Assembly: GCA_016930595.1 (NCBI GenBank)
Contig: JAFGGJ010000002.1
Span: 39,698-103,697, forward strand
Length of the DNA stretch: 64,000 nucleotides
From: Planctomycetota bacterium
GTDB lineage: Bacteria > Planctomycetota > SZUA-567 > JAFGGJ01
Direction of reading: 5' to 3'
This document shows positions 1 to 64,000 of the stretch, one piece after another. The notes beneath the pieces are model-generated. The model was not told the origin of the DNA and ran no database searches. It saw nothing but the letters and a program-made list of their open reading frames with translations. Positions within the stretch are counted from its first letter, which is position 1. Every line of letters begins with the position of its first letter. The translations under genes were made by a program, and so were the position numbers.

Positions 1-141
1 AAGGAGCTGGGGTATCCGACCGGATGGGTGGGTGTGCTTACGAACGCCGAGGTTGGGGGGACGGACGTCGACGGCTTTATAGACAGGACCCGGTCTAAGA
101 TAAGGGCGCTGGCCGTGGGGGATGCAGGGAAGGCTGGTTGA
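1..141 (+). CDS. 3' end of an upstream gene (partial, product unknown)
   Basis: Frame 1 is open from base 1 (KELGYPTGWVGVLTNAE...GDAGKAG) to TGA at 139-141 and overlaps the start of addB. Confidence 0.55.
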   Translation, partial: KELGYPTGWVGVLTNAEVGGTDVDGFIDRTRSKIRALAVGDAGKAG

Positions 142-2896
142 CGCGGTGTTCGTTGTGGCGGACGGCATAAGGCCGCTGACAGCGGCGTTCGCTTCGGGGG
201 TTGCGGAATACCGTGCGGCGCATCCGCTGGACCCGTACCTGGTGCTGGTGCCCGGGTACGCATGGGCAGACCGGCTGATGAAGCTGCTTGCAGGTTCGCT
301 CGAGAAGGATGCGAGGGGCCTGCCGTTGCCGGGGGGGGAATTCATAGATCTGAACACTGCGGCTGCGAGACTATGCCCGGGGGCTGCGGCGCGTGAGAGC
401 GATATTTATGCGGCCGCGCTGTCGGCGGCAAAGACCATGGGCGGAGAGGACGCCGCCTGGCCGTCGGTGATCAATTCGGTGGCTGCGGGCATGACGGGTG
501 CGATTGCGGCGGGTCTGACCGCCGGGGAACTGCGGAACGCCGCCGCGGACATGCCGGGGAACCGCAGGCTCGGGAACCTCGCGTCAGGACTGGCGGCATT
601 TGCACGGGAACTCGAAACCAGGGGCCGCATGTTGCCTGAGCAGGCAATGCTGCGCGCCGACGGCGGTGGAAGCCTCCGTGGCGGAGCGCTGTTCATCTTC
701 GGGTTCTACGACCTGTCGGCCGCCCAGGAGCGGCTGGCCAGGAGGATAGTGGCGGGATTCAGGGAGGGTGGACGCCCGGTGAGCGTGTTCATGCCGTCGC
801 CCGGAGGATACTGGGGTGATTTTGCGCGGCGGACGGAAGCTTTCTGGAGAGAGGTCCTGGATGAAGAGCCGCAGACCGTCGGCGAACCTTTCAAGGCGGC
901 TGGATCGTGGAAGGTATGCAGGGCGGCTTCACCCAGGGAAGAGGCGGCGGCGGCCATGGCGCTGGTGCGGGAAGCCGTCGAGCGGGGCATCGCGCCGGAA
1001 AGAATTGCCATTGTGGCAAGGGACCCGGAGCCGTACCTGCCAGTTCTCGAAGCGATGCTTGCAGAACATGGGATAAAGGCGGATTTCGGCAGGGAGAGAA
1101 AGCTTGCTTCGACGCCGGCAGGCATGTTCGCTGCGGCCATGTTCAAGCTGGGAGACATTGCGGCGCCGGCACTGAGGGAGGGGCGTGGAAACCACATGCC
1201 GGTGGCTGCGTTCCTGAGGATACTCGATCTGCCCGCGTGTTCGGAATGCGGCAGGATGGCTGCTTATTCCGGAGAAACGGTCACGGCCGGAATAATCACG
1301 GTGGGCGACCTGATGAGGATTGCTGGTGCGGGCGGCGGAACGGAAGAGCCGGCCGAGGTCCTGCTGAAGGGCCTTGCTGCGCTTGTGGATGAATTGGTTG
1401 CGGCCATAGCCGGGTGGGCGGCCGGGGACACGGTGGGGATGTTTGCCGCGATAAAGAAGTTCACCCGGCCGGATGCGTTCGGCGCGGCTGAGGTCGCGGC
1501 CCTCATGCAGGAGGCGGAAACATCCGGCGCCGGTTCGTGCGGGCTGCCGGTATTTCTGCTGGACAGGGCAAGGGTCGGGAGTTCCACCGGCGGCGTCCAC
1601 GTCCTGAGCGTGATGGCCGCCCGAGGTCTTGCGCCGGAATATGTGGTAGTAATGGGGGTGAGCGAAGGGACATTCCCCAGGAGAGCGGGAGGCGGGGGGC
1701 TGTTCGGCCATGAAATACGGCGGATGATGAATGACAGGCTGAACGGGGAAGGCACCAGGTTCGCCCTTGCCGGGGACGCCGTGGCGGAAGAACACATGCT
1801 GTTTCACATGACGGTGTCTTCGGCCGCGGGAGGCATCTTCACGTGTTCCGGGGACGGCGGACCTTCGAGAATGGTCCGGGACATGTTCGGAGACATCGAG
1901 TACGCGGACCCGGTACCATCGGGAGCCGTGGGCGGGAAAGTGCCTGGACCGGTGAAAAGAGGGCTGGGGGATTTTCTTCGGAACGCCGGGAGGGGCGATT
2001 TTTCCGCCAGGGAAGGGCTCATGCGGGCCGGAACGGTCAGCGGGCGCATTGTGTTGACTCCGTCGCAGATAGACGATTACCTGAAATGCCCGTACCTTGC
2101 CCTGCTGAGGCACATGCTGCAGATCGGAGAGCGGCACGACGATGTGTCCATGGAGCCGGTGCCGGCATGGCTGTGGGGCAGAGCGGTGCACAGAATGCTG
2201 GACGAGGCATTCGCCTCCGGCGGAAAGACTCCTGCTGGAGACCAGGTCGATGCCGCGGTCAAAGCGGCGACCGGGGTAGTGGACGCCATGGAGGCAGACG
2301 GAGTAGTCAGGAAAGGGGCGGTGTGGCAGGGGAAACGCGAAAGGGTGATCCGGCAGATAAGAACCTACGTGGCACAGGAGGCGCGTGAAAAAAGCGCCGG
2401 CAGCGTCAGGCGGGAATTCAAGTTCGAGCACGAACTGGACGGCGACGCCCTGCTGGTGGGGAGAATAGACAGAGTGGACGCGTACGAGGACGGTACATGC
2501 CGGCTGGTGGAATATAAGACGGGGCGTCCAGAAGGGGCGGACAAGTACGCTCAGCAGCTCGCGTTGTACAGGTACGCCCTGTCCCACGGGCATGAAACGG
2601 GAGAAGACGGCATTGAGGCTGAGATGGTCTACTTCGACAGGCCGCTCAGCGGGGATGTCCAGGTAATAAAAGGCAAAGCGCTGTCACTGGACGCGGTTGC
2701 GGAAGGCATAGGGGCCCTGGTGGAGGCCTACAGGGCAGGGGCTTTCGTGCGCTATCCCGTCGGGAAGAATACGTGCGACAGGTGCTACATGTACCACGTG
2801 TGCCTGGTTTCAGCGGCGGCACCGACGCAGATAAAAGATGATTCGGAAGCGGCGCGTGCCGTGGACCGGGCGAGGGAGTTTTTCGGTGTCAGGTAG
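122..2896 (+). CDS. addB: AddB/RexB-like nuclease subunit (inactive helicase fold plus PD-(D/E)XK nuclease with Fe-S staple)
   Basis: C-terminal LVGRIDRVD...LVEYKTG...QQLALY; Cys pattern YLKCPY ... CDRCxxxxxC; degenerate helicase motif VMAARGL; directly upstream of a UvrD-like gene. Confidence 0.85.
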   Translation: MQGRLVDAVFVVADGIRPLTAAFASGVAEYRAAHPLDPYLVLVPGYAWADRLMKLLAGSLEKDARGLPLPGGEFIDLNTAAARLCPGAAARESDIYAAALSAAKTMGGEDAAWPSVINSVAAGMTGAIAAGLTAGELRNAAADMPGNRRLGNLASGLAAFARELETRGRMLPEQAMLRADGGGSLRGGALFIFGFYDLSAAQERLARRIVAGFREGGRPVSVFMPSPGGYWGDFARRTEAFWREVLDEEPQTVGEPFKAAGSWKVCRAASPREEAAAAMALVREAVERGIAPERIAIVARDPEPYLPVLEAMLAEHGIKADFGRERKLASTPAGMFAAAMFKLGDIAAPALREGRGNHMPVAAFLRILDLPACSECGRMAAYSGETVTAGIITVGDLMRIAGAGGGTEEPAEVLLKGLAALVDELVAAIAGWAAGDTVGMFAAIKKFTRPDAFGAAEVAALMQEAETSGAGSCGLPVFLLDRARVGSSTGGVHVLSVMAARGLAPEYVVVMGVSEGTFPRRAGGGGLFGHEIRRMMNDRLNGEGTRFALAGDAVAEEHMLFHMTVSSAAGGIFTCSGDGGPSRMVRDMFGDIEYADPVPSGAVGGKVPGPVKRGLGDFLRNAGRGDFSAREGLMRAGTVSGRIVLTPSQIDDYLKCPYLALLRHMLQIGERHDDVSMEPVPAWLWGRAVHRMLDEAFASGGKTPAGDQVDAAVKAATGVVDAMEADGVVRKGAVWQGKRERVIRQIRTYVAQEAREKSAGSVRREFKFEHELDGDALLVGRIDRVDAYEDGTCRLVEYKTGRPEGADKYAQQLALYRYALSHGHETGEDGIEAEMVYFDRPLSGDVQVIKGKALSLDAVAEGIGALVEAYRAGAFVRYPVGKNTCDRCYMYHVCLVSAAAPTQIKDDSEAARAVDRAREFFGVR

Positions 2897-5800
2897 CGAC
2901 GCGCACTCGGGAAAGCTGGTGGACGAAGCCGAGCGCCGGCGGCTCGTGTCGGATTTCGGCACCGACCTTGTGGCGGTCGCCGGTGCGGGCACGGGCAAGA
3001 CGCGCCTGTTGACCGCGAGGGTGCTGAGGCTCGTGACGGAAGAGCGCATCACGCCTGATGAACTCTACATCGCCACGTTTACCGAAAAAGCGGCCGCAGA
3101 GATGCAGGAACGGCTGCTGAAGGGACTTGCCGAATTCGGAGACAGGGACCTGCTGCGCGGGATGGAGGAGAATCCCGCCGGCACGTTTCACGCCAGGGCC
3201 AGGGCCCTGCTGGAGGCGTTCAGGATGGAAGCGGGGCTGCCTCCGGGCTTTTCGGTCATGGACTCGGACGAACAGGCTTCGCTGTATTCGGAAGTGTTCA
3301 GGACGTATCTCGCAGCGGTCCTGGAAGAGGAAGGGGAAGCGTCGGAACAGGTGTTCCTGCTGTCGTCGCTGGGCATGAGCGCGCGGCGCATGGAAGAAGC
3401 GGCCGTCGAATACGCGAAGCACCGAGGGCGCGCCCCGGCGCTCGCGCTCGAGAATGCCTTGGGCGCCAGGCCGGCGCCGGACGCATCGCGAGACATCGTG
3501 TCCGGCGCTATCAGGGCCGCGCGCGATGCGGTGCATCTGGTCAGGGCCAATCCGGAAAAGCCCGGCTGGTGCAAGGCCGCCGCCGCCCTTGAGCGGGCCG
3601 TCGAACTGCTTGAGTCCCGGGACATGGAGGAAATTCTCGCAGGAAAGATATCGCTGGACCTGTACGAGTATTTCCTGGAGGCAAAGGCGGATATAAGCCT
3701 GACGAAGAACGACGCCAGGGGAAAGGCCATGGAAGCCATCGCCGTGCGGGAGGCAATAGGCAGCGATAAGCCTGGAGAACTGTCGGGGGCCAGGGGGGCG
3801 CTGGCGTCGCTGGAGCGGACGGTGCTGGATCATTTCACACGGGACATGGCCGGGCTGTTCGAGGGATACTTCTCGGCGTGCGAAAAGGAAAAGAGCCGCC
3901 GCGCTGCGTTGACGTTTGACGACCTGCTTGTGCGATTGAGGGACCTGATGAGAGACAACAGGGAAGTGCTCGCGGCCGTCAGCGGCAGGTTCAGGCACTT
4001 CCTGGTCGATGAGTTCCAGGACACCGATCCGATCCAGCTGGAGATAGTCAGGCTGGCGGCGGGAGGGCCTGGCGGGGGGAGGCTTTTCCTTGTGGGCGAC
4101 CCGCGGCAGTCGATATATCATTTTCGCGGAGCGGACCTGCGTGTCTACGCCGGGATGCGCGAACAGATGATCGGCGCGGGCGGGTCCGAAGTGAACCTGT
4201 GGCAGAACTTCCGGTCGGTGCCGGGTATACTCGGGTTCGTTAACGCCGTTTACAGCGAATGGGCGGAACGTCCCCCGCATGACATGAAATCCGGTGCCGA
4301 ACCGGCGCTTTCCTACAACCTTGAGCCCCACAGGAACAGCGCCGCCGGCAGCGTGGCGGTTCTTGTGCCGGACGGGCGGACACCAGGCGACGGGAGTCTT
4401 CTCACGCATGACGCTGTCAGGGGCGAGGCGGCGGCGCTGGCGAAGCACCTGTGCGGGATGATGGCCGCCGGACGGACGGTGATCGACCCGGCGAGCAACG
4501 AAGAGCGCCGGTTCGAATGGGGCGACGTGGCGATTATCCTGCAGCGCATGACGCATGTGCATGACTACGAAGAAGCCCTGGAAGACGCGGGCATCCCCTG
4601 CGTGCTCGAAGGGGCGCGCACGTTCTTCACAAAATTGGAAGTCCGTTCGCTGGGGGCGATCCTGCGGGCAGTCTGCTGGCCGGAAGACGCCGGGACGGTA
4701 ATGGGTGCGCTTTCTTCGTCGGTGCTTGCGGTGCCGGCGGAAGACGTCATGTCTTCGGTGCGCTCAGGCTGGAAGATCAGCCTGGCCGACCCGTTGCCGG
4801 ACGTGGCGTCGGAAACGCTGAAAGCGGCGGTGGAATATCTCAAGGTGTTCCTGCCGCTGGTTCCGCAGGGGCTGACGAGGCTGGTGGAAGCCGTCCTGGG
4901 GCGGGGCGGCCTGGGCGCCGCGTTCGGCGCCGCTGATCCGAGCGGAGCCCGGGCGTGGGCGCTGAGCGCATTTGCCGAGCTTGTAAGAAAAGAAGAAGCC
5001 GCCGGCCGGGGGCCCGGGGAAATACTGGCGAGGTTTCTTTCCGCCGGCGGCGCCGAACTGACCCTGCCGCAGGCGGTGAACGTTAATGCCGTGCATATCA
5101 CCACCGTGCACAAGGCAAAGGGCCTGGAGTGGCCGGTCGTGGTTGTGGCGGACCTGTTGGCGGATTCGGCCGGCGGCTCGGGCGGCAAGGTGACGTCGCT
5201 TTCCTCGCATGACGGGCGCTTTGCGCTGGCCGTGCCGCTTGACGGCGGCAAGAGACGGCTCGAAACGCCGCTGTTCGAAATGCTGGCGGCCGACGAGCGC
5301 GAGTACCAGGCGCAGGAATGGCTGCGCAAGCTTTACGTCGCGTTCACACGCGCGCGGGACCTGCTGGTGGTTTCGTGTGTGAGCGTACGCTTGTGCAAGA
5401 ACGCCCCGCCGTCGTCGGTGAGAGCCGTGGACCAACTGGTCGAAACGGCCGGGACATCGCCCGGGTCGGAAGTGGTGCGGGTCTGCGGGGAGCAGGTCCG
5501 GCGAAGGGGGACGCTCAGGGAAGCGGTTCTGGCGCTGGATGCACTGCCGGATGCGGTCGCGGCGGGAGACGCAGGAATATTGCCGGCGAGTTCTGTTCCG
5601 GCGGAGGGGGCGGTGTCGGAAGAAGCGGTCCTGTTGGGCGAAGCATTCCATGAGGGAGCGGCGATCTGGTTCAGGACGGGCGTCAGGCCCCGGGTCGCGT
5701 CATACGCCCCGCCGGGGGTGGACCACGACAGGGTCGAAGAACTGCTGGACAATCTGGAGGCACTGGATCTGCCGGCCCGGGTCGCCGGAGCAAAATCCGC

Positions 5801-6074
5801 GCTGGTGGAATGGCCGCTGCTGTCCGGAGACGGCGAAGTCTTCCGGGCGGATCTCTTACTGCTCGAGAACGACGGCTGGACGGTCGTGGAGCTGAAGTCG
5901 GACCGGGTTGCCGATGAGGACGTTCCGGCGACCGTGGAGATGTATCGGCGGGGGCAGGTGTTGAAGTACGTCCGGGCGTTGAAGGCTTCGGACGTCCCCG
6001 TGGCGGGGGCGTGCCTGGTTCTTGCCGGCGTGCCCCTGGCACGGAACCTGGATGTTCAGACGGCCGACGCCTGA
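2886..6074 (+). CDS. addA: AddA/UvrD-family ATP-dependent helicase-nuclease
   Basis: Walker A AGAGTGKT, TFTEKAA, LVDEFQDT, VGDPRQSIYHFRGAD, NFRS, TVHKAKGLEW, LYVAFTRAR; C-terminal nuclease RADLL...VELKS. Start taken at GTG 2886, overlapping the addB stop. Confidence 0.9.
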   Translation: MSGSDAHSGKLVDEAERRRLVSDFGTDLVAVAGAGTGKTRLLTARVLRLVTEERITPDELYIATFTEKAAAEMQERLLKGLAEFGDRDLLRGMEENPAGTFHARARALLEAFRMEAGLPPGFSVMDSDEQASLYSEVFRTYLAAVLEEEGEASEQVFLLSSLGMSARRMEEAAVEYAKHRGRAPALALENALGARPAPDASRDIVSGAIRAARDAVHLVRANPEKPGWCKAAAALERAVELLESRDMEEILAGKISLDLYEYFLEAKADISLTKNDARGKAMEAIAVREAIGSDKPGELSGARGALASLERTVLDHFTRDMAGLFEGYFSACEKEKSRRAALTFDDLLVRLRDLMRDNREVLAAVSGRFRHFLVDEFQDTDPIQLEIVRLAAGGPGGGRLFLVGDPRQSIYHFRGADLRVYAGMREQMIGAGGSEVNLWQNFRSVPGILGFVNAVYSEWAERPPHDMKSGAEPALSYNLEPHRNSAAGSVAVLVPDGRTPGDGSLLTHDAVRGEAAALAKHLCGMMAAGRTVIDPASNEERRFEWGDVAIILQRMTHVHDYEEALEDAGIPCVLEGARTFFTKLEVRSLGAILRAVCWPEDAGTVMGALSSSVLAVPAEDVMSSVRSGWKISLADPLPDVASETLKAAVEYLKVFLPLVPQGLTRLVEAVLGRGGLGAAFGAADPSGARAWALSAFAELVRKEEAAGRGPGEILARFLSAGGAELTLPQAVNVNAVHITTVHKAKGLEWPVVVVADLLADSAGGSGGKVTSLSSHDGRFALAVPLDGGKRRLETPLFEMLAADEREYQAQEWLRKLYVAFTRARDLLVVSCVSVRLCKNAPPSSVRAVDQLVETAGTSPGSEVVRVCGEQVRRRGTLREAVLALDALPDAVAAGDAGILPASSVPAEGAVSEEAVLLGEAFHEGAAIWFRTGVRPRVASYAPPGVDHDRVEELLDNLEALDLPARVAGAKSALVEWPLLSGDGEVFRADLLLLENDGWTVVELKSDRVADEDVPATVEMYRRGQVLKYVRALKASDVPVAGACLVLAGVPLARNLDVQTADA

Positions 6075-6099
6075 GCGGCACATGTTTTATGATATTGAC

Positions 6100-6127
6100 T
6101 TGCATGACTGTGTCTGCATGCTACATT
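6100..6127 (+). promoter_or_regulatory. possible sigma70-type promoter for the coiled-coil operon
   Basis: TTGCAT-16 nt-TACATT with TG at the extended -10 position, in an AT-richer intergenic gap. Confidence 0.35.
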
Positions 6128-6208
6128 TAATGGCGAGCGATAACGTGGGGGCTTCACCTGAACAATGGGCGGGGTATTGGTTTTTCGGGCCGCATTGGAG
6201 AGCATGAC

Positions 6209-6736
6209 ATGGCAGACAAGGCCAAGGCGAACAAGGTGGAAGAGGACGCTGTCGTGGAGCGCGCCAGGAACATGGCGGAAGAAGTAGCCGCCATAAGGGA
6301 TGCCGAGCAGTCCAGGTTGAAGGACATCCTGGCCGAAGCGGACCAGGTGTTACGGGAGACGATCACAATCGAAGCCGAGGTGACGCATCACAGTGTCCGG
6401 CGCACCGAACTTGAAAAAAGGCTGCGTGAACTGAAGGCCCGCGAAGAAGATGCGGAAGCCGCCATAAAGGAACTGGAAAAACAACTGGCCAAGTCCGAAA
6501 CAAAGGTTGGCGAAATGCAGAGCCGGAGCGAGGAGATGAGGCACGCCGTGGCCGACACCGACCAGGCGGTGGCGAAACTCGAAGTGGAACAGGACGCTCT
6601 CGGAAAGGAACTGGACAGGCTTGAGAAACAGAAGACCCGCCTGGATGACGACGTCAAGAGGTTGAAGAAGCTTCGCGAGGAATACATGTCCGCCATAGCC
6701 CAGTTCAAGGAAATGAAAGACAACCTTACTGGCTGA
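6209..6736 (+). CDS. coiled-coil protein A (paralog of 6773..7339)
   Basis: 175 aa, continuous heptad-like E/K/L/R-rich helix, no Pro; GGAGAG RBS. Confidence 0.85.
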   Translation: MADKAKANKVEEDAVVERARNMAEEVAAIRDAEQSRLKDILAEADQVLRETITIEAEVTHHSVRRTELEKRLRELKAREEDAEAAIKELEKQLAKSETKVGEMQSRSEEMRHAVADTDQAVAKLEVEQDALGKELDRLEKQKTRLDDDVKRLKKLREEYMSAIAQFKEMKDNLTG

Positions 6737-56501: not shown

Positions 56502-56508
56502 GGCCCGG

Positions 56509-57312
56509 ATGAAAACCAGCATCATCGTCGCAACGTACAACGCCCCGGAATATCTCCGGAAGGTCCTGGCCGGTTTCCTGGTGCAGACCGTCCGGCCGCA
56601 TGAATTGGTGATTGCCGACGACGGTTCCGGACCGGAGACCGCCGGCGTGGTGAAGGAGTATTCCGAAAAGGTGGATTTCCCGGTGATGCACACCTGGCAG
56701 GAAGACCGCGGCTTCCGCGTCGCCGCCGCCAGGAACAACGCCACCAGGAAGGCTACCGGCGACTACCTCATATACGTGGACGGCGATTGCATACCGGGGC
56801 CGCGTTTCGTAGAGGATCACATGAGAGTCGCAGCGCGGGACCGTTTCATCCAGGGCAAGAGGATAATGGTTACGCAGGCGGGAAAAGACGATGTGGACGG
56901 CAGCGAAAGCCTCGGTGAACTGATCAGGCTGCTGTTGTCGAGGAAGATAAAAAAGGCGCATCACCTGCTGCGGATTCCGGGGCTTGCTGTGAAGAAGAGG
57001 GGCATGAGGGGAATCCGCAGTTGCAACTTCGCCCTTCACCGGGATAACCTCGAGAAGGTCAATGGCTGGAACGAGGAGTTCGAAGGCTGGGGCAGGGAGG
57101 ACAGCGAACTGGCCGTGCGGTTGGTGCGCGTCGGCGTGGAACGGCGGGACCTGCTCTTTTCCGGCATCGTGTTCCACCTGCCTCACGAAGAACACGACCA
57201 GGACGGCCTGGCGAACAACAACCGGTTGCTGAAAGAAGCCTGGGAAGGCCCCACTTTCGTCAAGCGGGGACTCGAACGGAACGAAACCGGGCCGGACGGC
57301 GCTCAGACCTGA
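56509..57312 (+). CDS. glycosyltransferase family 2 with galactosyltransferase-like C-terminus
   Basis: IIVATYN, ADDGS, QEDRGFR, DGDCIP, NGWNEEFEGWGREDSEL. Confidence 0.9.
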   Translation: MKTSIIVATYNAPEYLRKVLAGFLVQTVRPHELVIADDGSGPETAGVVKEYSEKVDFPVMHTWQEDRGFRVAAARNNATRKATGDYLIYVDGDCIPGPRFVEDHMRVAARDRFIQGKRIMVTQAGKDDVDGSESLGELIRLLLSRKIKKAHHLLRIPGLAVKKRGMRGIRSCNFALHRDNLEKVNGWNEEFEGWGREDSELAVRLVRVGVERRDLLFSGIVFHLPHEEHDQDGLANNNRLLKEAWEGPTFVKRGLERNETGPDGAQT

Positions 57313-58424
57313 GGGGCCACCGCCGTAGTGTCGCCTTCCACAAAGCTGACGGGGATTATCTCGGTGCGGAATGCGTCGTAGCCCCGCTGGACGCGTTCCA
57401 GGATGAGTTCTCCGGCGGCAACGCCCATGTCCCTGGCGTTGAAATCTACTCCCGTCAGCACCTTGCCGGCGGTTTTCTCGCCCGCGGCAAACCCGACCAC
57501 GCTCACGTCCTCAGGGACGTTCACGCCGTTTTCGTTAAGATAGGTGATCGCTCCTTCGGCGTCCCCTCCGCCGAAGCACACGATGGCCGTGGCCCTGCGC
57601 CCGTTTTCCCAGAATTCCCGGATGCTTGCATGGGCGTCTTCGATGGTCCTTTCCACCACCCGCAGGGCGTGGCTTTCGTCCCGGACGTCGATGCCCGCCA
57701 TTTCCATGCCTATCCTGAAGCCGGCGAACCGTTCACGCGCCGCCGTGTCGATGTAATGCTTGTCTTCGGGGTCGGGCTCCGACCTCAAAAGGCCCCCCAG
57801 GAATACGATCTGCCTGTGGCCGAAGTCGAGCAGATGCTTGGTCATCAGCAGGCTTCCCTTTAAATTGTCCGCCACGACGGAATCGTAGCCCAGGCCGCTT
57901 GCGTCGTGGTCGACGAAGATCATGGGCTTCCCGACCTTCCGCAGCAGCGATATGAACTGCTTGCCCACGGGGCCTATGACGACGTAGCCGTCGACAAGGT
58001 CTTCGTGCAGGTTGGCTGATTCATCCGCGTGGCCCAGCCCGCTTTCGTTTATCACCAGGAGGCTGCGGTCAGCGCCAGCGAGCGCTTCCTGTATCCCCGC
58101 CAGGACGTTGGCATAGAAGCCCTTCCCCATGTATGTGCCGGCATGCATGGGCGCCAGGAACCCCACGACGTGCGTCATGCCGTCGGCATGGCGGGCCGGT
58201 TTGTCCACCACGAATATCCCGCGCCCCTGCTCGGATCGGAGCACGCCGCGGTCCACCAGCCGGTAAAGAGCCCTTTCCACCGTGGATTTGGCCACGTTGA
58301 AATTCTGCGACAATTCCCGGATCGACGGTATGCGCCCGCCTCGGGGGATTTCGCCCAGGGCTATTTTTTTCACGATCGATTCGGCGACGTGCATGTAATA
58401 CGGCGTGCGTTTGCTGTCGGGCAC
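57303..58424 (-). CDS. GntR HTH plus LacI-type sugar-binding regulator (AraR-like)
   Basis: PSIRELS..FNV..STVERA...L...G...QGRGIFV; DNLKG, HLLDFGHRQI, VPEDVSVVGF. Confidence 0.9.
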   Translation of the reverse strand: MPDSKRTPYYMHVAESIVKKIALGEIPRGGRIPSIRELSQNFNVAKSTVERALYRLVDRGVLRSEQGRGIFVVDKPARHADGMTHVVGFLAPMHAGTYMGKGFYANVLAGIQEALAGADRSLLVINESGLGHADESANLHEDLVDGYVVIGPVGKQFISLLRKVGKPMIFVDHDASGLGYDSVVADNLKGSLLMTKHLLDFGHRQIVFLGGLLRSEPDPEDKHYIDTAARERFAGFRIGMEMAGIDVRDESHALRVVERTIEDAHASIREFWENGRRATAIVCFGGGDAEGAITYLNENGVNVPEDVSVVGFAAGEKTAGKVLTGVDFNARDMGVAAGELILERVQRGYDAFRTEIIPVSFVEGDTTAVAPQV

Positions 58425-58550
58425 GTGGTATTCCTTTCCCGGACACCATGACGGTCCCCGGTGTTTCATTATAGGCGGCTTCGGTATTCTGCAACCGTCT
58501 GTACGCCTGCCGGCCGCCGGATCGTCGCCCCGCCGCCCCTTTCGGTAACT

Positions 58551-58925
58551 CTACTTGCCGTCAGATGTTCCGGATATCGCTATGGATACGATACCCTTGC
58601 GGATGAGCGTCCGCAGGAACATCAGGACCGCTTTTTCAGCTTCCGGCCGGGATACCTTGTGTTTCGACGCGAATTTCTTTATGATGTCCCGGACAGTTCT
58701 GCGCCCGTCGCAGAGTTCCACTATTTCGACTCCGAACGAATCCAGCTCGAAATCCCGCGTGACGAACTGCGGCAGCCGGAGCATCCAGCGCTGCCACCGG
58801 GATGTCTCGAACATCACCGTCAGCCGCTGGCCGCCGTCGTCCAGCGGCTTGCGATCCTGTATTTCGGCCACCACGGGACGGGCGTCGAGCGCCTGGCCCC
58901 TGGAAAGTTTCTCCTGTTTCGCCAT
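58551..58925 (-). CDS. PqqD/RRE family protein
   Basis: FELDSFGVEIVELCDGRRTVRDII..F...AEKAVLMFLRTLIRKG. Confidence 0.8.
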   Translation of the reverse strand: MAKQEKLSRGQALDARPVVAEIQDRKPLDDGGQRLTVMFETSRWQRWMLRLPQFVTRDFELDSFGVEIVELCDGRRTVRDIIKKFASKHKVSRPEAEKAVLMFLRTLIRKGIVSIAISGTSDGK

Positions 58926-59006
58926 GTCCGGTCGTGTCCCCGTCCGCAAATGAACCGCGCGCAGTTGTTATTATTGTACCTGTACGCCGTGGCATACCAC
59001 GAAACT

Positions 59007-59996
59007 TCACCCCTCGCCGACGGCGGAATCCTCCGCCCAGTGCAGGCCGTTCATGATTTCTTCGATCAGCGGCTCGAATTCTTTTCCCCCGCACGCCACG
59101 CCTATATAGACGAGCCGGTTCAGCGCCGCGTCATGATACAGCCTCACCCGCTGTCCAGGCGGCGTTCTCCACAGGAACAGCCTGAGCGGCAGGCGGAGAC
59201 GGGTCTCCGTCGTATATCCCTTCGCCGTTCCCTCCTCCAGCGGTTCGAAAACCGGGCCGCCCCTGCTGAACCGCTTCCTGTATCCGGGGCGGTAGAGCGA
59301 GCGGCCTTCTTCCAGCAGCCGGACCATCCACGCTTCCAGGTCCATTCTGGCCAGGGCGAGTTCCGCGGGATAGATCTCGCGCAGGACCATGCCGGGCCGC
59401 GTCGTCCACGACCGTTCGTCCGCCAGCCGGACCGTCATGTCTCCCAGGTTCAGGGTCCAGTGTTTCAGCGTGTAGCCTGCCGGCGACACGAAGCTCATTC
59501 CGAAAAACGCCCATTTCCAGGGAGTGTCCCGTTCCTGGTCGCTGAAGCGGGCGAGCGTTATCTTGCGGAAAGTTTCGTCGTCGCCGGGGCTTTCATGGTG
59601 GTAGGCGATTTCAAAAACCCTGTCCGTCGCGGGACAGTAACCCACGCAGTGATCCCGCCCCGTTTCCCTGTTCCTGTACAGCAGCAATCCCTCCAGGGAT
59701 GAATTTTCAATTTCCTTCGCCGACTTCGTCACGTCGGCGCCGGCTATCCTGGAAAGCTGCCTTATGGCGAAATCACGCGCGCGGAACCTGCGGCGCGTAA
59801 CGGAATTCCACAGGATTTCCAGCCGGGGCCGGGCGGCGTCCGAAAGACAGATCACGCCCTTCCTGTAGTGGCCGTCTATTTTGTAGGGACGCAGGTCCGG
59901 GCGGACTTCGGTCAGCATCCCCATCCAGCCCAGCGGGATCGTCGCCGCCGTCGGCGCGGCGGATTTCTTCCTGTTTCTGCTTTTTCGAGCCGACAC
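59007..59996 (-). CDS. hypothetical protein (possibly two PsbP/DcrB-like domains)
   Basis: 329-aa ORF co-oriented within the cluster; two similar starts, WMGMLTEVRPD and FFGMSFVSPAG. Confidence 0.65.
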   Translation of the reverse strand: MSARKSRNRKKSAAPTAATIPLGWMGMLTEVRPDLRPYKIDGHYRKGVICLSDAARPRLEILWNSVTRRRFRARDFAIRQLSRIAGADVTKSAKEIENSSLEGLLLYRNRETGRDHCVGYCPATDRVFEIAYHHESPGDDETFRKITLARFSDQERDTPWKWAFFGMSFVSPAGYTLKHWTLNLGDMTVRLADERSWTTRPGMVLREIYPAELALARMDLEAWMVRLLEEGRSLYRPGYRKRFSRGGPVFEPLEEGTAKGYTTETRLRLPLRLFLWRTPPGQRVRLYHDAALNRLVYIGVACGGKEFEPLIEEIMNGLHWAEDSAVGEG

Positions 59997-60033
59997 GGCG
60001 CCCCCCGGTTCCCTGGGTCGCGTTCCCCGGCGT

Positions 60034-62262
60034 TCACGAACTGTAACGGTTCAGGTCGATTCCGCTTACCTGGAAGTGCAGTATGAGCGAAAGGACGTTC
60101 CACAGGAACACTGCCAGCAACTCTCCCATTATCAGGCCTATGAATACCAGGCGCACCCTGTCGTACGTGGATTTGCCGCCGTACCTGACCACTACCTTCT
60201 TCGCGGCCCACCCGATGAAGAAACTGAACCACAGGCGCGACATTAACGGGTTCACCAGCATTATGTAGCCTATCGGATGCGGGAACCAGAACAGCGTCTG
60301 CCGCAGCAGCATGGAAATCGCCGTCCATGCCGCTCCTATCGCGTACCATATCAGCGTCGTGGCACGGAAGCTCGGCGGCGAAGTGGCCGCATTGTACGCC
60401 TGGCGCACGATCCCGGAAGGCCCCTGCGAATAGAACCAGTTGTCCATCTGCTGGCCGCCTTCCATGTAGGCAAGGAATATCGTGAACGCCAGCGACACGA
60501 GCACCGTTACGGCCAGGCTCACCACCATGTTCAGGTGATACTTCCCGCGCCCGGCACGCGTATCCTCGCGCATCTTGCCGGCGTTCAGCAGGCTTGGCGC
60601 AAGGAACGTCTTTATGTCAAGGAACAGCACCTGGTATATGGGGATCAGCGGCCCTATGAAAGTCGCCGAACTCGGGAAATACTTCCCCATGCCCAGCATC
60701 TTGTACGAATGGAAAAAGCTCGCGTGCGACTGGAACCAGTAAATGCCGCCTTCGGCCACTATCCGCATCAGCCCCAGCGTGATCAGCGTCAGGAAGCCCA
60801 CTATGAGCATCGAGAAAATCATGGTCGAGAAATATCCAGGAGCGTCTCCGGGCGCCGCGGCGCGGGCGTCGTAATTGCGCCAGTTCCAGTTCAGCCACAG
60901 GGTCACCACCGCCAGCGATACCGCCAGCCCTATGACCGGCAGCATCAGCTTGATCCGCTCGCCTCCCCTCTTGCCCTTTGCATAGATGAAATACTGCCGG
61001 ATGCTCCTGTACAGGCTCACCGCGCTGAAGAGCAGGATGCCTCCCGCCCCCTGTGCCGATATCGGGTTGTCCATCCACAGCCAGTCCGTGGGGAAATCGT
61101 TCATGTTGCGGCCGTACCCCAGCCACACCGCCACCAGCAGCATGAACTTGGCGAACAGAAAATAAAACCACGCCGAAAAACTGATCTCTGTGGGCAGCAG
61201 GAACGCTATGCCTATCGCTGTGAATATGATCAGGAATGTCAGCGGATGGCTGTATCCCCCCGTCAGCCCTTCCACGAAACTGCCTTGCAGTATCTGCTCG
61301 GTGCGCCATGACGACATCCCCAGGGTTATCTTGCTGAGCCCCGTGATCCATTCCGCGGCGACCATCGCGTTCCAGCTTATTACGAGGAAACTCAAGGCGA
61401 ACCCCGCCCAGAAGCCCGGCGCCTTGAACACCTTCGGCACCCAGCTCCTTTCCTCCCCAGGTTCCGGTATCACCGCCTCCGGCAGCTTTGCAAGCGGGAA
61501 TATCAGTTTCTCTCGCCCTGACCAGTACCCCAGCACGATCTGTGTCAGGCTGTAAAACATGCCGTAGGCTCCCGCTATGAAGATCATCCAGTAGCCCAGC
61601 GGCTTCAGCCATACCCCCCAAGGCACTTCCTTGAACACCTCCCACCGGAAAGCCCATTTCTCCGCCGACGGCGCCGATTCCGCCGGCCGCGGCACCGGCA
61701 GCCCTTCGCGGAACACCCGCACCGCAGCGGGATCCGATATGTAGAGGTCCTTGTTCATGTACGGCAGCAGTTGCTCGTCCCAGCCCGCCTGGGGCGTGTT
61801 CCACTCGGGGTTCCACGGCGCGGTCATCATGGGGACGAGCTGGTCCACCAGGCCGTACGTCGAAATGCCCGCAGTAACGAGCAGCGTCGCAAACACGCAC
61901 ACCAGCTCCGCTCGGCTCAACTTGACGAACAGGTTGTCCATCGGCACTGATAACCATTTCATCGCCATCTGCAGCCCGCGCAGCGCGGGGTTGACGGCTA
62001 TCACCAGCAGTATCAGCATGCCGAAAGCCAGCACCGGGATCATCGTCGAACTCGGGTACACGTGCCGGTACGTTTCTGCGAGTATCGTCACCACGGCCTG
62101 TCCCACGCACAGCAGCAGCGACAGCGGCAGCACCAGCCACAGCCGCACTCTCGTCGGGCTTTCGCTCGGCAGCAGCGCCGAGATGTCCGGGCTTTCGGCC
62201 GCAGGCTGGTTTTCCCAGTCCACGCGTTCCAGGTCGACACGCTTGTACGCTGTTTCGCTCAT
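60034..62262 (-). CDS. DUF6785/DUF6784-type polytopic membrane protein (OPT-related)
   Basis: About 16-18 TM segments; LSRAEL, W...EKLIFPL, IGIAFLLP.EISFS.W, RIVAEGG, WFPHPIGY, RYGG...Y....FIGLIMGE. Confidence 0.75.
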   Translation of the reverse strand: MSETAYKRVDLERVDWENQPAAESPDISALLPSESPTRVRLWLVLPLSLLLCVGQAVVTILAETYRHVYPSSTMIPVLAFGMLILLVIAVNPALRGLQMAMKWLSVPMDNLFVKLSRAELVCVFATLLVTAGISTYGLVDQLVPMMTAPWNPEWNTPQAGWDEQLLPYMNKDLYISDPAAVRVFREGLPVPRPAESAPSAEKWAFRWEVFKEVPWGVWLKPLGYWMIFIAGAYGMFYSLTQIVLGYWSGREKLIFPLAKLPEAVIPEPGEERSWVPKVFKAPGFWAGFALSFLVISWNAMVAAEWITGLSKITLGMSSWRTEQILQGSFVEGLTGGYSHPLTFLIIFTAIGIAFLLPTEISFSAWFYFLFAKFMLLVAVWLGYGRNMNDFPTDWLWMDNPISAQGAGGILLFSAVSLYRSIRQYFIYAKGKRGGERIKLMLPVIGLAVSLAVVTLWLNWNWRNYDARAAAPGDAPGYFSTMIFSMLIVGFLTLITLGLMRIVAEGGIYWFQSHASFFHSYKMLGMGKYFPSSATFIGPLIPIYQVLFLDIKTFLAPSLLNAGKMREDTRAGRGKYHLNMVVSLAVTVLVSLAFTIFLAYMEGGQQMDNWFYSQGPSGIVRQAYNAATSPPSFRATTLIWYAIGAAWTAISMLLRQTLFWFPHPIGYIMLVNPLMSRLWFSFFIGWAAKKVVVRYGGKSTYDRVRLVFIGLIMGELLAVFLWNVLSLILHFQVSGIDLNRYSS

Positions 62263-62263
62263 T

Positions 62264-64000
62264 CTAGTACCCCAGTGTGGTCGTGCTCTTCACTATAAGC
62301 GCTATCGCCACCGAAGCCATGCCTACCAGTCCCACGCCCGCCATGAAGCCCGCGACCACTATCGCTATGTATCGCTTGAACGTCTGGTGCCCGAACTTCC
62401 GCTGCAGGTAGAACCTCCCGATAAGCGCCCCGATGAATTCCGGCAGTATCTGCCCGGGCGTGGTCTGTCCCAGTCCGCGCACCGCCCCGTAGACCAGGAA
62501 CGTGGGCAGGTTCAGAAAACTCAACAGTATGAACGACAGCAGCCCCGATCCCAGCCCCCACCCGATTATGTCCCATTTTATCGCTTCCAGGAACTGGCTC
62601 GACCCTTCCATTGTCGATGTCACCGTCAGGCTGAAATTCAGCGCGTTCAGGTGCCACACTTCCTGCGTGAACGGGTACGTCTCGCTCGGGATCGGCGCTA
62701 TGCGCCATATCAGCTCGCTGAACAGCAGCGTGGTCAGCGCCACTATGGGATACGCCAGGAGCTCGACCTTTATGACCCCCGTCAGCTTGGTCCCCGTCAG
62801 CTCCAGTATCCGGAAGCCTCTCACCGCCCCGGCGTAGTCCGTCATCGGGATCGGCGCGAACCATATCGCCGCCCCCTTGTAGCCGGAAAGAATGAACGCC
62901 GCCTCCCGCACCAGCGGTATCGCCACCGTCTGCCCCACCATGCCTTCGAGCTTGGCGTTCGTGTAGCTTATGATCGGCTGGTACAGGAACGCAAACCCCA
63001 GGAAGAACAGCCACGGGAACCGCCCCTTCCCCGTCACCGGGTCGCCCGGCATCAGGTACGTGCAGATCCCTATGTACGTGATCGTGCTCAGGAGGTATAT
63101 CCCCAGCGACATCAGTATGGATATGTCCCCGCGCTCCCTGTCGCGGCTCAGCAGTTCCCTCCATATCTGCCCGAAGCCCTTCCTTTCCGCCGCCCCTTCC
63201 TCGCCCCCAGCACCTATCCACCTCATGAACATGGGCTTCAGTATCCGCGAAGATATGCTCACCAGGAATATCGCGAACATCAGCCCTATGCTGAACGACA
63301 GGTAGAAATCGATGTGGTTGCTGAAAAGCGTGTCCACCACCCCCATGCCCGGCTGCCACGTCGTCAGCATGCCGTTGTGATACAGGATGGGATTCAGTAT
63401 CCATGTCACTATCAGCCCTATGAATCCCCCGACCACCGCCCAGAACGGCAGCACCATCCCCACGATCACGAGCGTCAGGTCGAACACCAGGTTCAGCGGC
63501 ACCGCCGGCATGAAATCCCTGGTGCTTACCGCCGCCGTCAGGTCCAGCCACGGGATCGGGATTATCTTCACCGGGTGGTTGAACAGCACCGATGTCACCG
63601 CCGGAACGCCCGCGTATATGGCGCCGAAGGCCAGCCCCATCACGCCCCCGAGGGAAAAACACCGCCACCGCCACCTCTGCGTTTCGTCTCCCGAATCCGC
63701 CAGCGCCGTCACCCCCAGCGCTCCCACCGGCGCCATCGGGAAGGGCAGTTTCTCGACGTGCGACGTCAGCCGGTACAGCGCATATCCCAGCCCGAAGTGG
63801 TCTATCCGCCCCAGCAGCAGGGTCCCGAATATGAACGCCATCGGCGGCAGCCAGTGGCGCGTGAAGAACGTCCTCCCAGTCTGCTCGATCACTTCCTTCG
63901 ACGGCGCTATCCACGCCGGAATCTCCGACGCCACCCCCATCCCCACCGTCGCCGGCGACTGCACCAGGTACTGGTACCACAGGAAGTTCTGGAAAGGCAT
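62264..64000 (-). CDS. OPT-like peptide transporter (5' end outside the window)
   Basis: Multi-TM; VEKLPFPMAPVGA, SGYKGAAIWFAP, IWRIAPIPSETYP, AGFMAGVGL; open to the window edge. Confidence 0.75.
   Translation of the reverse strand: MPFQNFLWYQYLVQSPATVGMGVASEIPAWIAPSKEVIEQTGRTFFTRHWLPPMAFIFGTLLLGRIDHFGLGYALYRLTSHVEKLPFPMAPVGALGVTALADSGDETQRWRWRCFSLGGVMGLAFGAIYAGVPAVTSVLFNHPVKIIPIPWLDLTAAVSTRDFMPAVPLNLVFDLTLVIVGMVLPFWAVVGGFIGLIVTWILNPILYHNGMLTTWQPGMGVVDTLFSNHIDFYLSFSIGLMFAIFLVSISSRILKPMFMRWIGAGGEEGAAERKGFGQIWRELLSRDRERGDISILMSLGIYLLSTITYIGICTYLMPGDPVTGKGRFPWLFFLGFAFLYQPIISYTNAKLEGMVGQTVAIPLVREAAFILSGYKGAAIWFAPIPMTDYAGAVRGFRILELTGTKLTGVIKVELLAYPIVALTTLLFSELIWRIAPIPSETYPFTQEVWHLNALNFSLTVTSTMEGSSQFLEAIKWDIIGWGLGSGLLSFILLSFLNLPTFLVYGAVRGLGQTTPGQILPEFIGALIGRFYLQRKFGHQTFKRYIAIVVAGFMAGVGLVGMASVAIALIVKSTTTLGY

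What the first reader, a model, noticed from the sequence alone, without database searches (positions are those of the whole stretch)
1..64000. Sawtooth purine/GC skew independent of gene orientation
Seen: + strand counts in 60-nt samples are 1-60 G29/C10; 30541-30600 G12/C29; 36481-36540 G29/C17; 47821-47880 G31/C13; 63901-63960 G13/C30. By eye the bias fades gradually from G/A-rich (1 kb) to C/T-rich (about 33.8 kb) although almost all of these genes are on +. It then flips sharply between about 33.8 and 35.8 kb and fades again to C-rich by 60-64 kb. Synonymous codons follow position rather than strand: CTG/GTG/ATA/AGG in addB and the antiporters, CTC/GTC/ATC/CGC in the kinase. Known: a single-origin chromosome gives two skew domains of megabase size; gradual decline with abrupt upward jumps is the N-domain pattern of multi-origin replication. 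Inference: a strand-asymmetric process (replication initiation or a loaded translocase exposing ssDNA) may start at sites spaced tens of kb apart. The counts are a few hand-picked lines only.
Basis: partly seen in the sequence, partly recalled or inferred. Interest (0 to 1): 0.85.

Follow-up and report, generated by a model that had tools for sequence, protein, structure and literature searches.

The report
Sawtooth strand bias across bacterial genome
In this bacterial genome the DNA strands drift from G/A-rich to C/T-rich and snap back about every 36 kb regardless of gene direction, which looks like the footprint of many fixed DNA-synthesis start sites and not like the usual two-armed bacterial pattern.

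Summary
All five hand counts and the codon claims are exact. At fourfold-degenerate sites the + strand GC skew falls from +0.5 to -0.58 over window 1-33.8 kb. It flips to +0.5..+0.7 by 36-46 kb and falls again to -0.5. The bias ignores gene strand. It is also present in intergenic DNA (r=0.70) and inside long genes. All large contigs show the same sawtooth: about 88 sharp upward jumps, median spacing 36 kb, linear declines. Jumps coincide with lineage-specific structured non-coding repeats, and assembly breaks at them. Sampled relatives lack the pattern and the repeat. PriA is present in 30 of 30 relatives and full-length RecG in 26 of 30. Neither is detectable here. Best reading (about 0.5): DNA synthesis starts bidirectionally at many fixed sites and ends at variable points, as in mammalian skew N-domains. 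Against it: genes and tRNAs are not co-oriented, the sites share no motif, and most internal jumps lack any element. The mechanism is inferred, not shown.

The parts
1..33835 (.). Descending limb of a skew domain. The domain starts upstream of the window at about C37:27.8 kb.
   Evidence: Fourfold-site GC skew on + falls from +0.50 to -0.55. The slope is -0.0282 per kb (t=-19.7) with a gene-strand term of -0.15.
33836..35800 (.). Upward transition zone (the jump).
   Evidence: Fourfold skew is -0.55 in the kinase gene (30215-33835), -0.10 in the HEAT-repeat gene (34276-35757) and +0.52 in the proA-like gene (35797-37098). The change point is called at C37:75375, which is window 35678. Synteny with the metagenome relative L113 ends at about 35.8 kb.
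33845..34165 (.). Structured dispersed non-coding repeat ('module D') at the left edge of the jump.
   Evidence: The self-BLAST block C37:73548-73858 has up to 14 hits. Copies lie at other jumps and at contig ends. The DNA fold is -89 kcal/mol, z=-4.19. An inverted repeat CCACCCACCCC/GGGGTGGGTGG lies at 33854-33864 and 34012-34022. There is no Rfam match.
35797..48600 (.). G/A-rich plateau to the right of the jump. Most genes here are on the - strand.
   Evidence: Fourfold skew is +0.41 to +0.69 in genes of both strands. The slope is about 0 over 37.2-48.6 kb.
48600..64000 (.). Descending limb of the second domain. It continues beyond the window to a total skew of -0.27 near C37:110 kb.
   Evidence: The slope is -0.059 per kb, t=-11.8. 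Fourfold skew falls from +0.11 to -0.51.
23676..27483 (-). Block of - strand genes that produces a local bump and an apparent sharp fall at about 27.8 kb.
   Evidence: Fourfold skew is +0.06 and +0.04 here, against -0.3 and -0.58 in the flanking + genes. The fall is listed as down step C37:67558, at a - to + strand switch. This is the gene-strand term, not part of the sawtooth.

Best explanation
The sawtooth is a mutational footprint, not selection on genes. One strand accumulates purines (G, and less so A) in proportion to how often it is the strand synthesised away from a fixed site. Inferred mechanism: DNA synthesis of the replication-fork type starts bidirectionally at about 90-110 fixed intergenic sites. 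Their median spacing is 36 kb, and many are marked by lineage-specific structured repeats. Converging forks meet at variable points between neighbouring sites. Mean fork direction, and with it the skew, therefore falls linearly from one site to the next and jumps back at each site. This is the logic of mammalian skew N-domains, here about 30 times smaller and much stronger. The apparent loss of PriA and RecG fits a chromosome in which a stalled fork is rescued by a converging neighbour instead of being restarted. Shown here: the pattern, its polarity, its independence of genes, its link to repeats, its absence in sampled relatives, and the non-detection of PriA and RecG. Inferred: that the process is replication, that the sites are origins, and how they fire.
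For: (1) The pattern is genome-wide. 78% of 49,176 sampled positions have a negative local slope. There are 44 sharp rises against 15 sharp falls at fourfold sites. Among same-strand neighbour genes, 23 rises exceed 0.6 against 6 falls. (2) In the pooled profile of 13 complete domains the skew falls linearly from +0.6 to -0.47. Per-gene fourfold skew is almost uniformly distributed between -0.85 and +0.75 (2,200 genes), as expected if mean fork direction is uniform between -1 and +1. (3) The bias is mutational. It is seen at fourfold sites in genes of either strand, in intergenic DNA (r=0.70, GC skew -0.21 to +0.19) and inside long genes (right half minus left half -0.027 +/- 0.011, 63% of 182 negative). 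It is strong enough to shift amino-acid use. (4) The polarity is that of an origin. On each side of a jump, the strand running 5'->3' away from it is G-rich. In the class relative G007 the G-rich strand carries 74% of long-ORF bases, so it is that genome's leading strand. G007's uniform total skew of -0.2 to -0.3 equals the sawtooth's extremes. (5) The sites are physical features. 59 of 76 contigs start G-rich and 63 of 76 end C-rich. All 20 contig-end copies of repeat arm A and all 9 of arm B face a flank with the predicted sign. 7 of 16 internal repeat blocks sit on rises above 0.2, against 3.8% of background positions. 7 of 35 internal jumps have repeats within 2.5 kb, against 2.5% of random positions (p=4e-5). 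(6) Arms A and B join into one element of about 360 nt with an AT-rich centre flanked by inverted repeats. It is found only in this genome out of 62 genomes of its class. (7) PriA is over cut-off in 30 of 30 relatives (29 of 29 without unpublished G030) and full-length RecG in 26 of 30 (26 of 29). Neither is found here by family model or by a relative's protein. The two genes are 110 kb apart in G007.
Against: Genes are not co-oriented with the putative forks. 50% lie on the locally G-rich strand overall, and only 39% (96 of 245) where |skew| is at least 0.6, so near jumps genes tend to point towards the site. Only 15 of 38 tRNA genes are co-oriented. The single dnaA lies in mid-domain, not at a jump. 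No 8-12-mer is shared by the 42 jump sites. No protein family is enriched near 132 site edges. No Orc1/Cdc6 or Rep_3 initiator was found. 28 of 35 internal jumps have no detectable repeat, and jumps have no longer intergenic gaps or stronger AT-rich minima than random positions. Some flips occur across gaps of 16-88 nt. The bias is of purine type (G with A, r=0.60), whereas G007's leading strand is G-rich and slightly T-rich. Short domains do not reach as negative an end value as long ones. Two repeat clusters sit where there is no jump, C40:30037-30522 and C43:28791. The genome is an 82%-complete MAG, so absence of PriA and RecG is not proven. If the two absences are independent, the chance that both were merely missed is about 0.03.
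Confidence: 0.5

Rival explanations
1. The process is not the regular replication programme. It is origin-independent or repair-linked DNA synthesis, or nick-primed strand displacement or ssDNA exposure, launched outward again and again from the structured repeats. Hairpins or cruciforms there could be nicked or broken. Tract lengths would be variable, so the effect fades with distance.
For: The repeats at the jumps are strongly structured (z=-4.19). AddAB is encoded in the window. RecG is not detected. In E. coli without RecG, over-replication flanks a site-specific break and 'backwards-directed' forks are proposed (passages read in PMC5412681). Some jumps are one-sided, for example C33 -0.77 to -0.10 and C83 +0.10 to +0.76. 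Short domains do not reach full negative values, as a decay-with-distance model predicts.
Against: The E. coli pathway depends on PriA, which is not detected here. SbcD was not found. Ordinary ends-in break repair predicts the opposite polarity, with synthesis converging on the site (reasoning). To reach G:C of about 6:1 at fourfold sites with no visible replichore background, the process would have to outweigh normal replication as a source of mutations. Contig mean skew does not follow gene-strand bias (r=-0.12, n=53). The pooled decline is linear through zero and is not two decays towards zero.
Confidence: 0.2
2. The polarity is reversed. The sharp sites are fixed fork barriers or termination sites, initiation is diffuse, and the pyrimidine-rich strand is the leading strand in this lineage.
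For: Near the sharp sites 61% of genes (149 of 245) point towards the site, which would then be co-orientation. 17 head-on against 10 co-oriented tRNAs at |skew|>0.1 would likewise become co-orientation. The bias type differs from relative G007.
Against: In the class relative G007 the gene-rich strand, taken as the leading strand, is G-rich, as in bacteria generally (recalled). Diffuse initiation with about 90 point terminators has no precedent. Dispersed repeats are known to collect at 3' ends of genes for unrelated reasons (recalled for REP/BIME), which alone can explain the gene orientation.
Confidence: 0.05
3. Long-range divergent transcription from the repeat elements, resistant to termination and fading over tens of kb, causes transcription-associated strand asymmetry.
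For: The polarity fits: the non-template strand of an outward transcript would be the G-rich one. The arms of the repeats read outward into both flanks.
Against: No sigma-70-like promoter was found in either arm (0 found in each scan). The bias ignores the direction of the genes themselves. Transcription-linked skews known from bacteria are small compared with 0.7-0.85 (recalled). Transcripts of 20-50 kb running antisense through about half the genes are implausible.
Confidence: 0.05
4. The pattern is a mosaic or an artefact: inversions, horizontal transfer or chimeric assembly joins in a genome that has an ordinary strong replichore skew.
For: Jumps coincide with repeats, where rearrangements and assembly joins occur. 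Synteny with the relative L113 ends next to the window's jump. Only one public run holds the sequence, and its contigs are too fragmentary to confirm continuity.
Against: Rearrangement gives steps of both signs and flat segments. It does not give linear gradients with one polarity (44 rises against 15 falls), and it does not give gradients inside single genes. Several sharp jumps lie in unique sequence within contigs (C57:23062-23150, C57:70590-71400). Reverse-complementing a contig leaves the polarity unchanged, so contig orientation cannot create it. An assembler cannot shift synonymous sites while keeping reading frames open.
Confidence: 0.03

Closest known systems
Skew N-domains of mammalian chromosomes (replication fork directionality gradients)
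   Same: They show sharp upward skew jumps, a linear decline between jumps, and a skew seen outside genes. They are interpreted as fixed efficient initiation sites with variable termination. Passages read in PMC4729899: 1,546 upward jumps, linear decrease, confirmed by Okazaki-fragment sequencing.
   Different: N-domains span 0.5-3 Mb, against a median of 36 kb here. The amplitude here is far larger, total GC skew +/-0.25 and fourfold +/-0.8. This is a bacterium with DnaA. The bias is G with A here, but G with T in the mammalian total skew S=SGC+STA. Mammalian borders show gene co-orientation, which is not seen here.
Classical bacterial replichore GC skew (one oriC, one terminus)
   Same: The strand synthesised away from the start site is G-rich. 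The magnitude matches the uniform -0.2 to -0.3 skew of class relative G007.
   Different: The classical pattern has two domains of megabase size with step-like changes. Here there are about 88 domains with gradients. dnaA is not at a switch. There is no leading-strand gene bias here, against 74% in G007.
Origin-independent replication in E. coli lacking RecG or RNase HI (stable DNA replication, reverse-restart)
   Same: Replication starts away from oriC, at breaks, arrested forks or R-loops, when RecG is missing (PMC5412681 passages; PMC4631800 abstract only). RecG is not detected here.
   Different: In E. coli this is a laboratory mutant pathology that depends on PriA. Here PriA is also undetected. 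Here the pattern is an evolutionary steady state, written into synonymous sites.
Archaeal multi-origin chromosomes with inverted origin-recognition boxes around an AT-rich unwinding region (recalled)
   Same: They have several fixed origins per circular chromosome. The A-B element has an AT-rich centre flanked by inverted repeats.
   Different: Archaea have 2-5 origins, not about 90. No Orc1/Cdc6 gene was found here. Archaeal skews are weak (recalled; the abstracts listed debate their cause).
REP/BIME/MITE-type dispersed intergenic repeats
   Same: They are short, non-coding, multi-copy, strongly folding, intergenic and lineage-specific.
   Different: Such repeats are not known to mark switches of strand composition (recalled). 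Here their flanks carry the predicted skew sign at 29 of 29 contig-end A and B arms.
Vertebrate mitochondrial skew gradient, where skew rises with time spent single-stranded (recalled)
   Same: It is a linear positional gradient of skew at fourfold sites, independent of gene content.
   Different: It is one gradient per 16-kb molecule. The bias there comes from C-to-T and A-to-G changes (transitions), whereas a purine/pyrimidine bias as seen here needs transversions.

Membership tests
Skew N-domains (fork-direction gradients) | Sharp upward skew jumps at discrete sites | tested here: met
   There are 44 internal change points with a rise above 0.6 at fourfold sites. Adjacent genes flip, for example from -0.79 to +0.66 at C39:9560/9703.
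Skew N-domains (fork-direction gradients) | Linear decline between consecutive jumps | tested here: met
   The pooled profile of 13 complete domains falls from +0.6 to -0.47 in near-equal steps. The window limbs have t=-19.7 and t=-11.8, with one plateau.
Skew N-domains (fork-direction gradients) | Skew is independent of transcription or gene strand and is present in non-coding DNA | tested here: met
   The intergenic correlation is r=0.70.
Skew N-domains (fork-direction gradients) | Jumps coincide with experimentally mapped initiation sites or changes in fork direction | not testable with these tools
   Only one run holds the sequence, kept as fragmentary contigs without depth.
Skew N-domains (fork-direction gradients) | Genes co-oriented with replication near the domain borders | tested here: not met
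   96 of 245 genes (39%) lie on the G-rich strand at |skew|>=0.6. 15 of 38 tRNAs are co-oriented.
Classical single-origin bacterial skew | Two skew domains switching at oriC (often near dnaA) and at the terminus | tested here: not met
   There are several switches per 100-kb contig. dnaA at C2:22215-22694 lies in mid-domain.
Insertion sequence ends at contig breaks | Terminal inverted repeats flanking a transposase gene | tested here: not met
   The reverse complement of C75:1-91 overlaps the end of C12 (91 nt, 4 mismatches). Arms A and B therefore form one element of about 360 nt with no room for a gene. One other contig end (C30) does read as a DDE transposase fragment (reading recalled).
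REP/MITE-like dispersed repeats | Short, non-coding, multi-copy, structured, intergenic | tested here: met
   There are 21 copies of arm A, 9 of arm B, 15 of arm C and about 50 hits to module D. The fold has z=-4.19. There is no Rfam family.
RecG-less or PriA-dependent origin-independent replication | Absence of RecG (or RNase HI) | tested here: inconclusive
   RecG was not found by model or by a relative's protein. Full-length RecG is present in 26 of 30 relatives. The genome is only 82% complete. There is a borderline RNase H match of 26.8 bits.
RecG-less or PriA-dependent origin-independent replication | PriA present to load the helicase | tested here: not met
   No PriA was found, although 30 of 30 relatives have it. 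The same completeness caveat applies.
Archaeal-type origins | Orc1/Cdc6 initiator gene | tested here: not met
   The best match is 22.3 bits, against a cut-off of 181.

The most novel reading that the evidence does not exclude
This bacterium duplicates its chromosome from roughly a hundred fixed start sites spaced about 36 kb apart, in the eukaryotic manner. Stochastic firing makes forks meet anywhere between neighbouring sites. Because a stalled fork is rescued by its neighbour, the lineage has dispensed with the otherwise near-universal PriA/RecG restart system. The start sites are specified by a lineage-specific family of structured non-coding elements, and an initiation mechanism not tied to the dnaA locus is used.
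Probability: 0.35. Interest if true: 0.97.

Novelty: new variant of a known kind. Interest (0 to 1): 0.9.

Why it matters
Bacterial chromosomes are taken to replicate from one origin, and GC skew is routinely used on that assumption to find origins, check assemblies and estimate growth rates. A free-living bacterium whose synonymous sites record about 90 start sites would be the first natural exception. It would offer a bacterial model for how multi-origin replication evolves, including what becomes dispensable, apparently PriA and RecG. Even if the cause proves to be a repair or strand-displacement process, the outcome is notable: a site-anchored mutational force strong enough to give G:C of 6:1 at fourfold sites and to shift amino-acid use within 20 kb would be a new determinant of codon usage. 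On the practical side, codon-usage, horizontal-transfer and skew-based tools will misread genomes of this kind.

Tried and rejected
- Seven literature searches found no report of a tens-of-kb sawtooth skew in a bacterium. PMC7111523 mentions 'aberrant' skew patterns and rolling-circle-like patterns that are listed in supplementary tables. I could not open those tables, and they might hold a similar case.
- Read evidence gave nothing usable. One run (X1, a sediment metagenome, probably the source sample) holds the stretch, but only as short Logan contigs. Laying them gave no usable depth and no piece spanning the jump. This is neither support nor refutation.
- The genome-contig scan with the proA-like protein found no close relative; the best match was 58% identical. 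The metagenome scan found two matches at 70%. L113 is too short (10.9 kb) to say whether it has a sawtooth.
Its gene content and its best proA hits suggest a Planctomycetota- or PVC-like lineage, but this is not established.
- K-mer enrichment at 42 jump sites found no shared 10-12-mer and only weak 8-mers.
- No protein family is enriched near the jumps.
- No sigma-70-like promoter was found in the repeat arms. My first impression of outward promoters was therefore dropped.
- I first read repeat family A as an insertion-sequence end with long inverted repeats. That was rejected when A and B joined into a 360-nt element.
- TTAACCGGTTAAC arrays looked like iterons. They are rare and sit at jumps (C39, C71, C11, C86) and at four contig ends, with one exception (C27). 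They are absent from most jump sites.
- MutY and Fpg were not found here, but MutY is also missing from 18 of 30 relatives, so it was dropped as a specific cause.
- The repeat elements have no match among plasmids or phages and no Rfam family.
Full report
**What was checked first.**
- In 2-kb windows the + strand GC skew falls smoothly from +0.234 at the start of the window to about -0.18 at 29-32 kb. It crosses zero at 33-35 kb and reaches +0.19 by 36-38 kb. It stays at +0.16..+0.25 to about 49 kb and then falls to -0.17 at the window's end. AT skew moves in the same direction.
- I called genes with a simple GC3-based ORF picker. 17 of the 20 called window genes that I scanned have Pfam matches on the called strand.
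- 14 of the 18 genes in 122-33835 lie on +.
- At fourfold-degenerate sites the + strand skew per gene runs from +0.50 to -0.58 across the first limb. It jumps to +0.52..+0.69 in the - strand genes at 35.8-46.2 kb and falls to -0.5 by 60-64 kb.
- A regression with gene strand as covariate gives -0.0282 per kb (t=-19.7) for 0-33.8 kb. It gives a flat plateau for 37.2-48.6 kb and -0.059 per kb (t=-11.8) for 48.6-64 kb. With + strand genes alone, p=3e-88.

**The pattern is genome-wide.**
- The window is G000:C37:39698-103697, in a 3.40-Mb assembly of 96 contigs that is 82% complete.
- Contigs C37, C57 and C11 all show repeated sharp rises followed by slow declines, with total skew between about +0.27 and -0.30.
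- 78% of 49,176 sampled positions have a negative local slope.
- At fourfold sites there are 44 rises above 0.6 and 15 falls. 12 of the 15 falls sit at a switch from - strand to + strand genes. They reflect a separate gene-strand term of about 0.07-0.15.
- Among same-strand neighbour genes there are 23 rises above 0.6 and 6 falls.
- The + strand fourfold skew of neighbouring genes correlates at 0.816, against -0.001 +/- 0.022 after shuffling. The skewness of increments is 0.69, against 0 +/- 0.033.
- Reverse-complementing a contig leaves this polarity unchanged, so contig orientation cannot produce it.

**The bias is mutational and positional, not a property of genes.**
- Per-gene coding-strand fourfold skew is spread almost evenly from -0.85 to +0.75 (2,200 genes). 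A linear sawtooth predicts this. Two replichores would not.
- At the extremes the + strand fourfold composition is G 0.71-0.72, C 0.12-0.15, A 0.07-0.12 and T 0.05, in genes of either strand.
- G and A rise together (r=0.60), so this is a purine/pyrimidine bias. Transitions cannot change it. It needs asymmetric transversions (reasoning).
- Fourfold GC content is higher at the extremes, 0.83-0.87 against 0.77. A T-to-G type change on the outward strand would fit all three facts. This is a conjecture.
- Intergenic DNA follows the local fourfold skew (r=0.70; GC skew -0.21 to +0.19; AT skew -0.12 to +0.115).
- Inside 182 genes of 2.4 kb or more, away from jumps, the right half is on average 0.027 +/- 0.011 lower than the left half, and 63% of the differences are negative. 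This holds for genes of both strands.
- The pressure also shifts first and second codon positions and amino-acid use. Glu, Gly and Lys go up and Pro and Ser go down on purine-rich coding strands.
- In the metagenome relative L113 (proA 70% identical) the proA gene carries a skew of the opposite sign. The bias therefore belongs to the place, not to the gene.

**Shape and scale.**
- Thirteen domains bounded by two internal jumps are 16-54 kb long. Pooled, they fall linearly from +0.6 to -0.47.
- Long domains end at -0.6 to -0.97. Short ones end at -0.15 to -0.4.
- Counting contig ends with jump-type skew as boundaries gives 53 domains. The median is 36.4 kb, the interquartile range 29-49 kb and the full range 7-73 kb.
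- 44 internal sites plus 88 contig ends give about 88 sites in 3.40 Mb.
- Some jumps are razor sharp. Adjacent genes flip from -0.79 to +0.66 at C39:9560/9703. At C57:70590/71400 they flip from -0.76 to +0.67, with both genes on the same strand.

**What sits at the jumps.**
- Contigs tend to break there. 59 of 76 contigs start G-rich and 63 of 76 end C-rich.
- 68 of 192 contig ends share related repeats.
- Of 84 dispersed-repeat blocks, 68 lie at contig ends. 7 of the 16 internal ones sit on rises above 0.2, against 3.8% of background positions.
- Contig ends that carry a recognised repeat module have the maximal outward skew. The counts above 0.1 are A 16 of 17, B 8 of 8, D 8 of 9, C 7 of 11 and E 4 of 6. 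None of the 51 is below -0.1. Of the 115 ends without a module, 47% are above 0.1.
- I first took family A for an insertion-sequence end. However, the outer part of an A end (C75:1-91, reverse-complemented) overlaps the outer part of a B end (C12) over 91 nt with 4 mismatches.
- A and B are therefore the two arms of one non-coding element of about 360 nt. It has an AT-rich centre flanked by an inverted repeat, and both arms read outward into the flanks.
- All 20 contig-end A arms and all 9 B arms face a flank of the predicted sign. An old internal A relic (80% identity, C11:20220) also sits on a jump.
- The window's own jump carries a different module of the same repertoire at 33845-34165. It folds far better than shuffles (z=-4.19) and contains an 11-nt perfect inverted repeat 147 nt apart.
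- These elements match no Rfam family, no plasmid or phage record, and none of the other 61 genomes of the class.

**Evidence that weakens an 'origin element' reading.**
- Seen from the jumps, only 7 of 35 internal change points have a detectable repeat within 2.5 kb. That is still enriched over 2.5% at random positions (p=4e-5).
- There is an ascertainment bias, because jumps with high-copy repeats become contig ends.
- Jumps have neither longer intergenic gaps nor stronger AT-rich minima than random places.
- No word of 8 to 12 nt is common to the sites.
- No protein family is enriched nearby.
- No promoter-like sites were found in the arms.
- Two repeat clusters have no jump.
- The single dnaA lies in the middle of a domain.
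- Gene direction is independent of local skew (50%, 49% and 48% on the G-rich strand at increasing thresholds). Close to the jumps, only 96 of 245 genes are on the G-rich strand, so genes tend to point at the site.
- tRNA genes are likewise not co-oriented; 15 of 38 are.

**Relatives.**
- All 30 'relatives' offered are only of the same class, and G000 is alone in its family.
- G007, a closed genome with 44% GC, shows a classical uniform skew of -0.2 to -0.3 over 200 kb. 74% of its long-ORF bases lie on the G-rich strand.
- G002, G005, G011, G014 and G018 are flat, with |skew| mostly below 0.06.
- G003 undulates mildly. G019 shows one long decline and one jump.
- None of the eight sampled relatives has the +/-0.25 sawtooth. 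Only 20-200 kb of each was examined.

**Replication and repair genes.**
- PriA is over its curated cut-off in 30 of 30 relatives (29 of 29 without the unpublished G030), including MAGs that are 77-80% complete.
- Full-length RecG is found in 26 of 30 relatives (26 of 29 without G030).
- In G000 neither is found, by family model or with a relative's protein as query. The only matches are to an Mfd-like 1072-residue frame.
- The two genes are 110 kb apart in G007. In an 82%-complete genome, the chance of both being missed is therefore roughly 0.03.
- SbcD, Fpg and MutY were also not found. MutY is missing from 18 of 30 relatives too.
- No Orc1/Cdc6 or Rep_3 initiator was found.

**How it most likely works.**
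- On both sides of a jump, the strand that runs 5'->3' away from the site is purine-rich. That is the polarity of a leading strand leaving an origin.
- The extremes equal the uniform skew of a single-origin relative. The values are bounded and evenly spread, the decline is linear, and rises vary in size.
- These are the properties of a fork-direction profile with fixed initiation and variable termination. Passages I read in PMC4729899 describe such a profile for mammalian N-domains, confirmed there by Okazaki-fragment sequencing.
- Losing PriA and RecG makes sense if converging forks from neighbouring sites replace restart. This is inference.

**The rivals.**
- The main rival is outward synthesis or ssDNA exposure launched at the structured repeats by nicks or breaks. 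It has an E. coli precedent when RecG is absent (PMC5412681 passages).
- That pathway needs PriA. Ordinary break repair has the opposite polarity. And the process would have to outweigh normal replication as a mutation source.
- Reversed polarity (fixed terminators), long divergent transcription, and rearrangement or assembly artefacts each fit less well.

**Limits.**
- The gene calls are my own crude ones. Strand errors would not move the physical third positions used for + strand skew.
- No read depth, no close relative and no experiment were available.

**Verdict.** Its shape is that of a known kind, replication-linked skew domains, in a new setting and at a new scale. The mechanism is inferred.

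Noticed in passing
G000 whole genome, against 30 class relatives: PriA and full-length RecG are not detectable in this genome, although PriA is in 30 of 30 relatives and RecG in 26 of 30. The only match is an Mfd-like 1072-residue frame at C1:9684-10865.
   Followed up: yes
G000:C75:1-204 and G000:C12:28040-28289 (loci L212, L215): The two arms (A and B) of a non-coding element of about 360 nt, with an AT-rich centre between inverted repeats. Arm A has 21 copies and arm B has 9. The assembly breaks inside it.
   Followed up: yes
G000:C39:9668, C71:61736, C11:49358, C86:27265, C27:36670 and the contig ends C44 (left), C57 (right), C68 (right), C85 (right): Rare arrays of TTAACCGGTTAAC-like palindromes, spaced about 15 nt apart. 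The internal copies sit at skew jumps, except the one in C27.
   Followed up: partly
G000:C85:3014-3304: A tandem array of four units with an 82-nt period. Each unit is related to part of the window's jump-site element. The array lies 3 kb inside a contig start.
   Followed up: no
window 122-6074: The addB-like (PD-(D/E)XK) and addA-like (UvrD-type helicase) genes overlap by 59 nt (2838-2896). They lie at the G-rich end of a domain.
   Followed up: no
window 7408-11181, 21190-23175, 27791-30139, 23676-25286(-): Four large open reading frames (536-1257 aa) have no significant Pfam family. The first has only a sub-threshold DUF2730 hit.
   Followed up: no
window 27532-27693: Two adjacent tRNA genes (Gln, Glu) lie on the + strand, where the + strand is C-rich. 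They are head-on relative to the putative fork direction.
   Followed up: partly
L113 2900 onward, against window about 35.8 kb: Gene order shared with a metagenome relative (proA 70% identical, 56% GC) stops right beside the window's jump. The jump sites may therefore also be rearrangement breakpoints.
   Followed up: partly
G019:C39:1-160000 and G003:C2:1-200000: Two class relatives show single long skew declines followed by a rise. In G019 the skew goes from 0 to -0.2 over 100 kb and then jumps to +0.11. G003 rises at about 24 kb and then fades over about 70 kb. These may be weak or incipient forms of the same pattern, or ordinary ori/ter features.
   Followed up: no
G000:C30, right end: This contig end reads as a fragment of a DDE-type transposase gene. 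Ordinary insertion sequences therefore also break this assembly. The family was assigned by eye, not tested.
   Followed up: no
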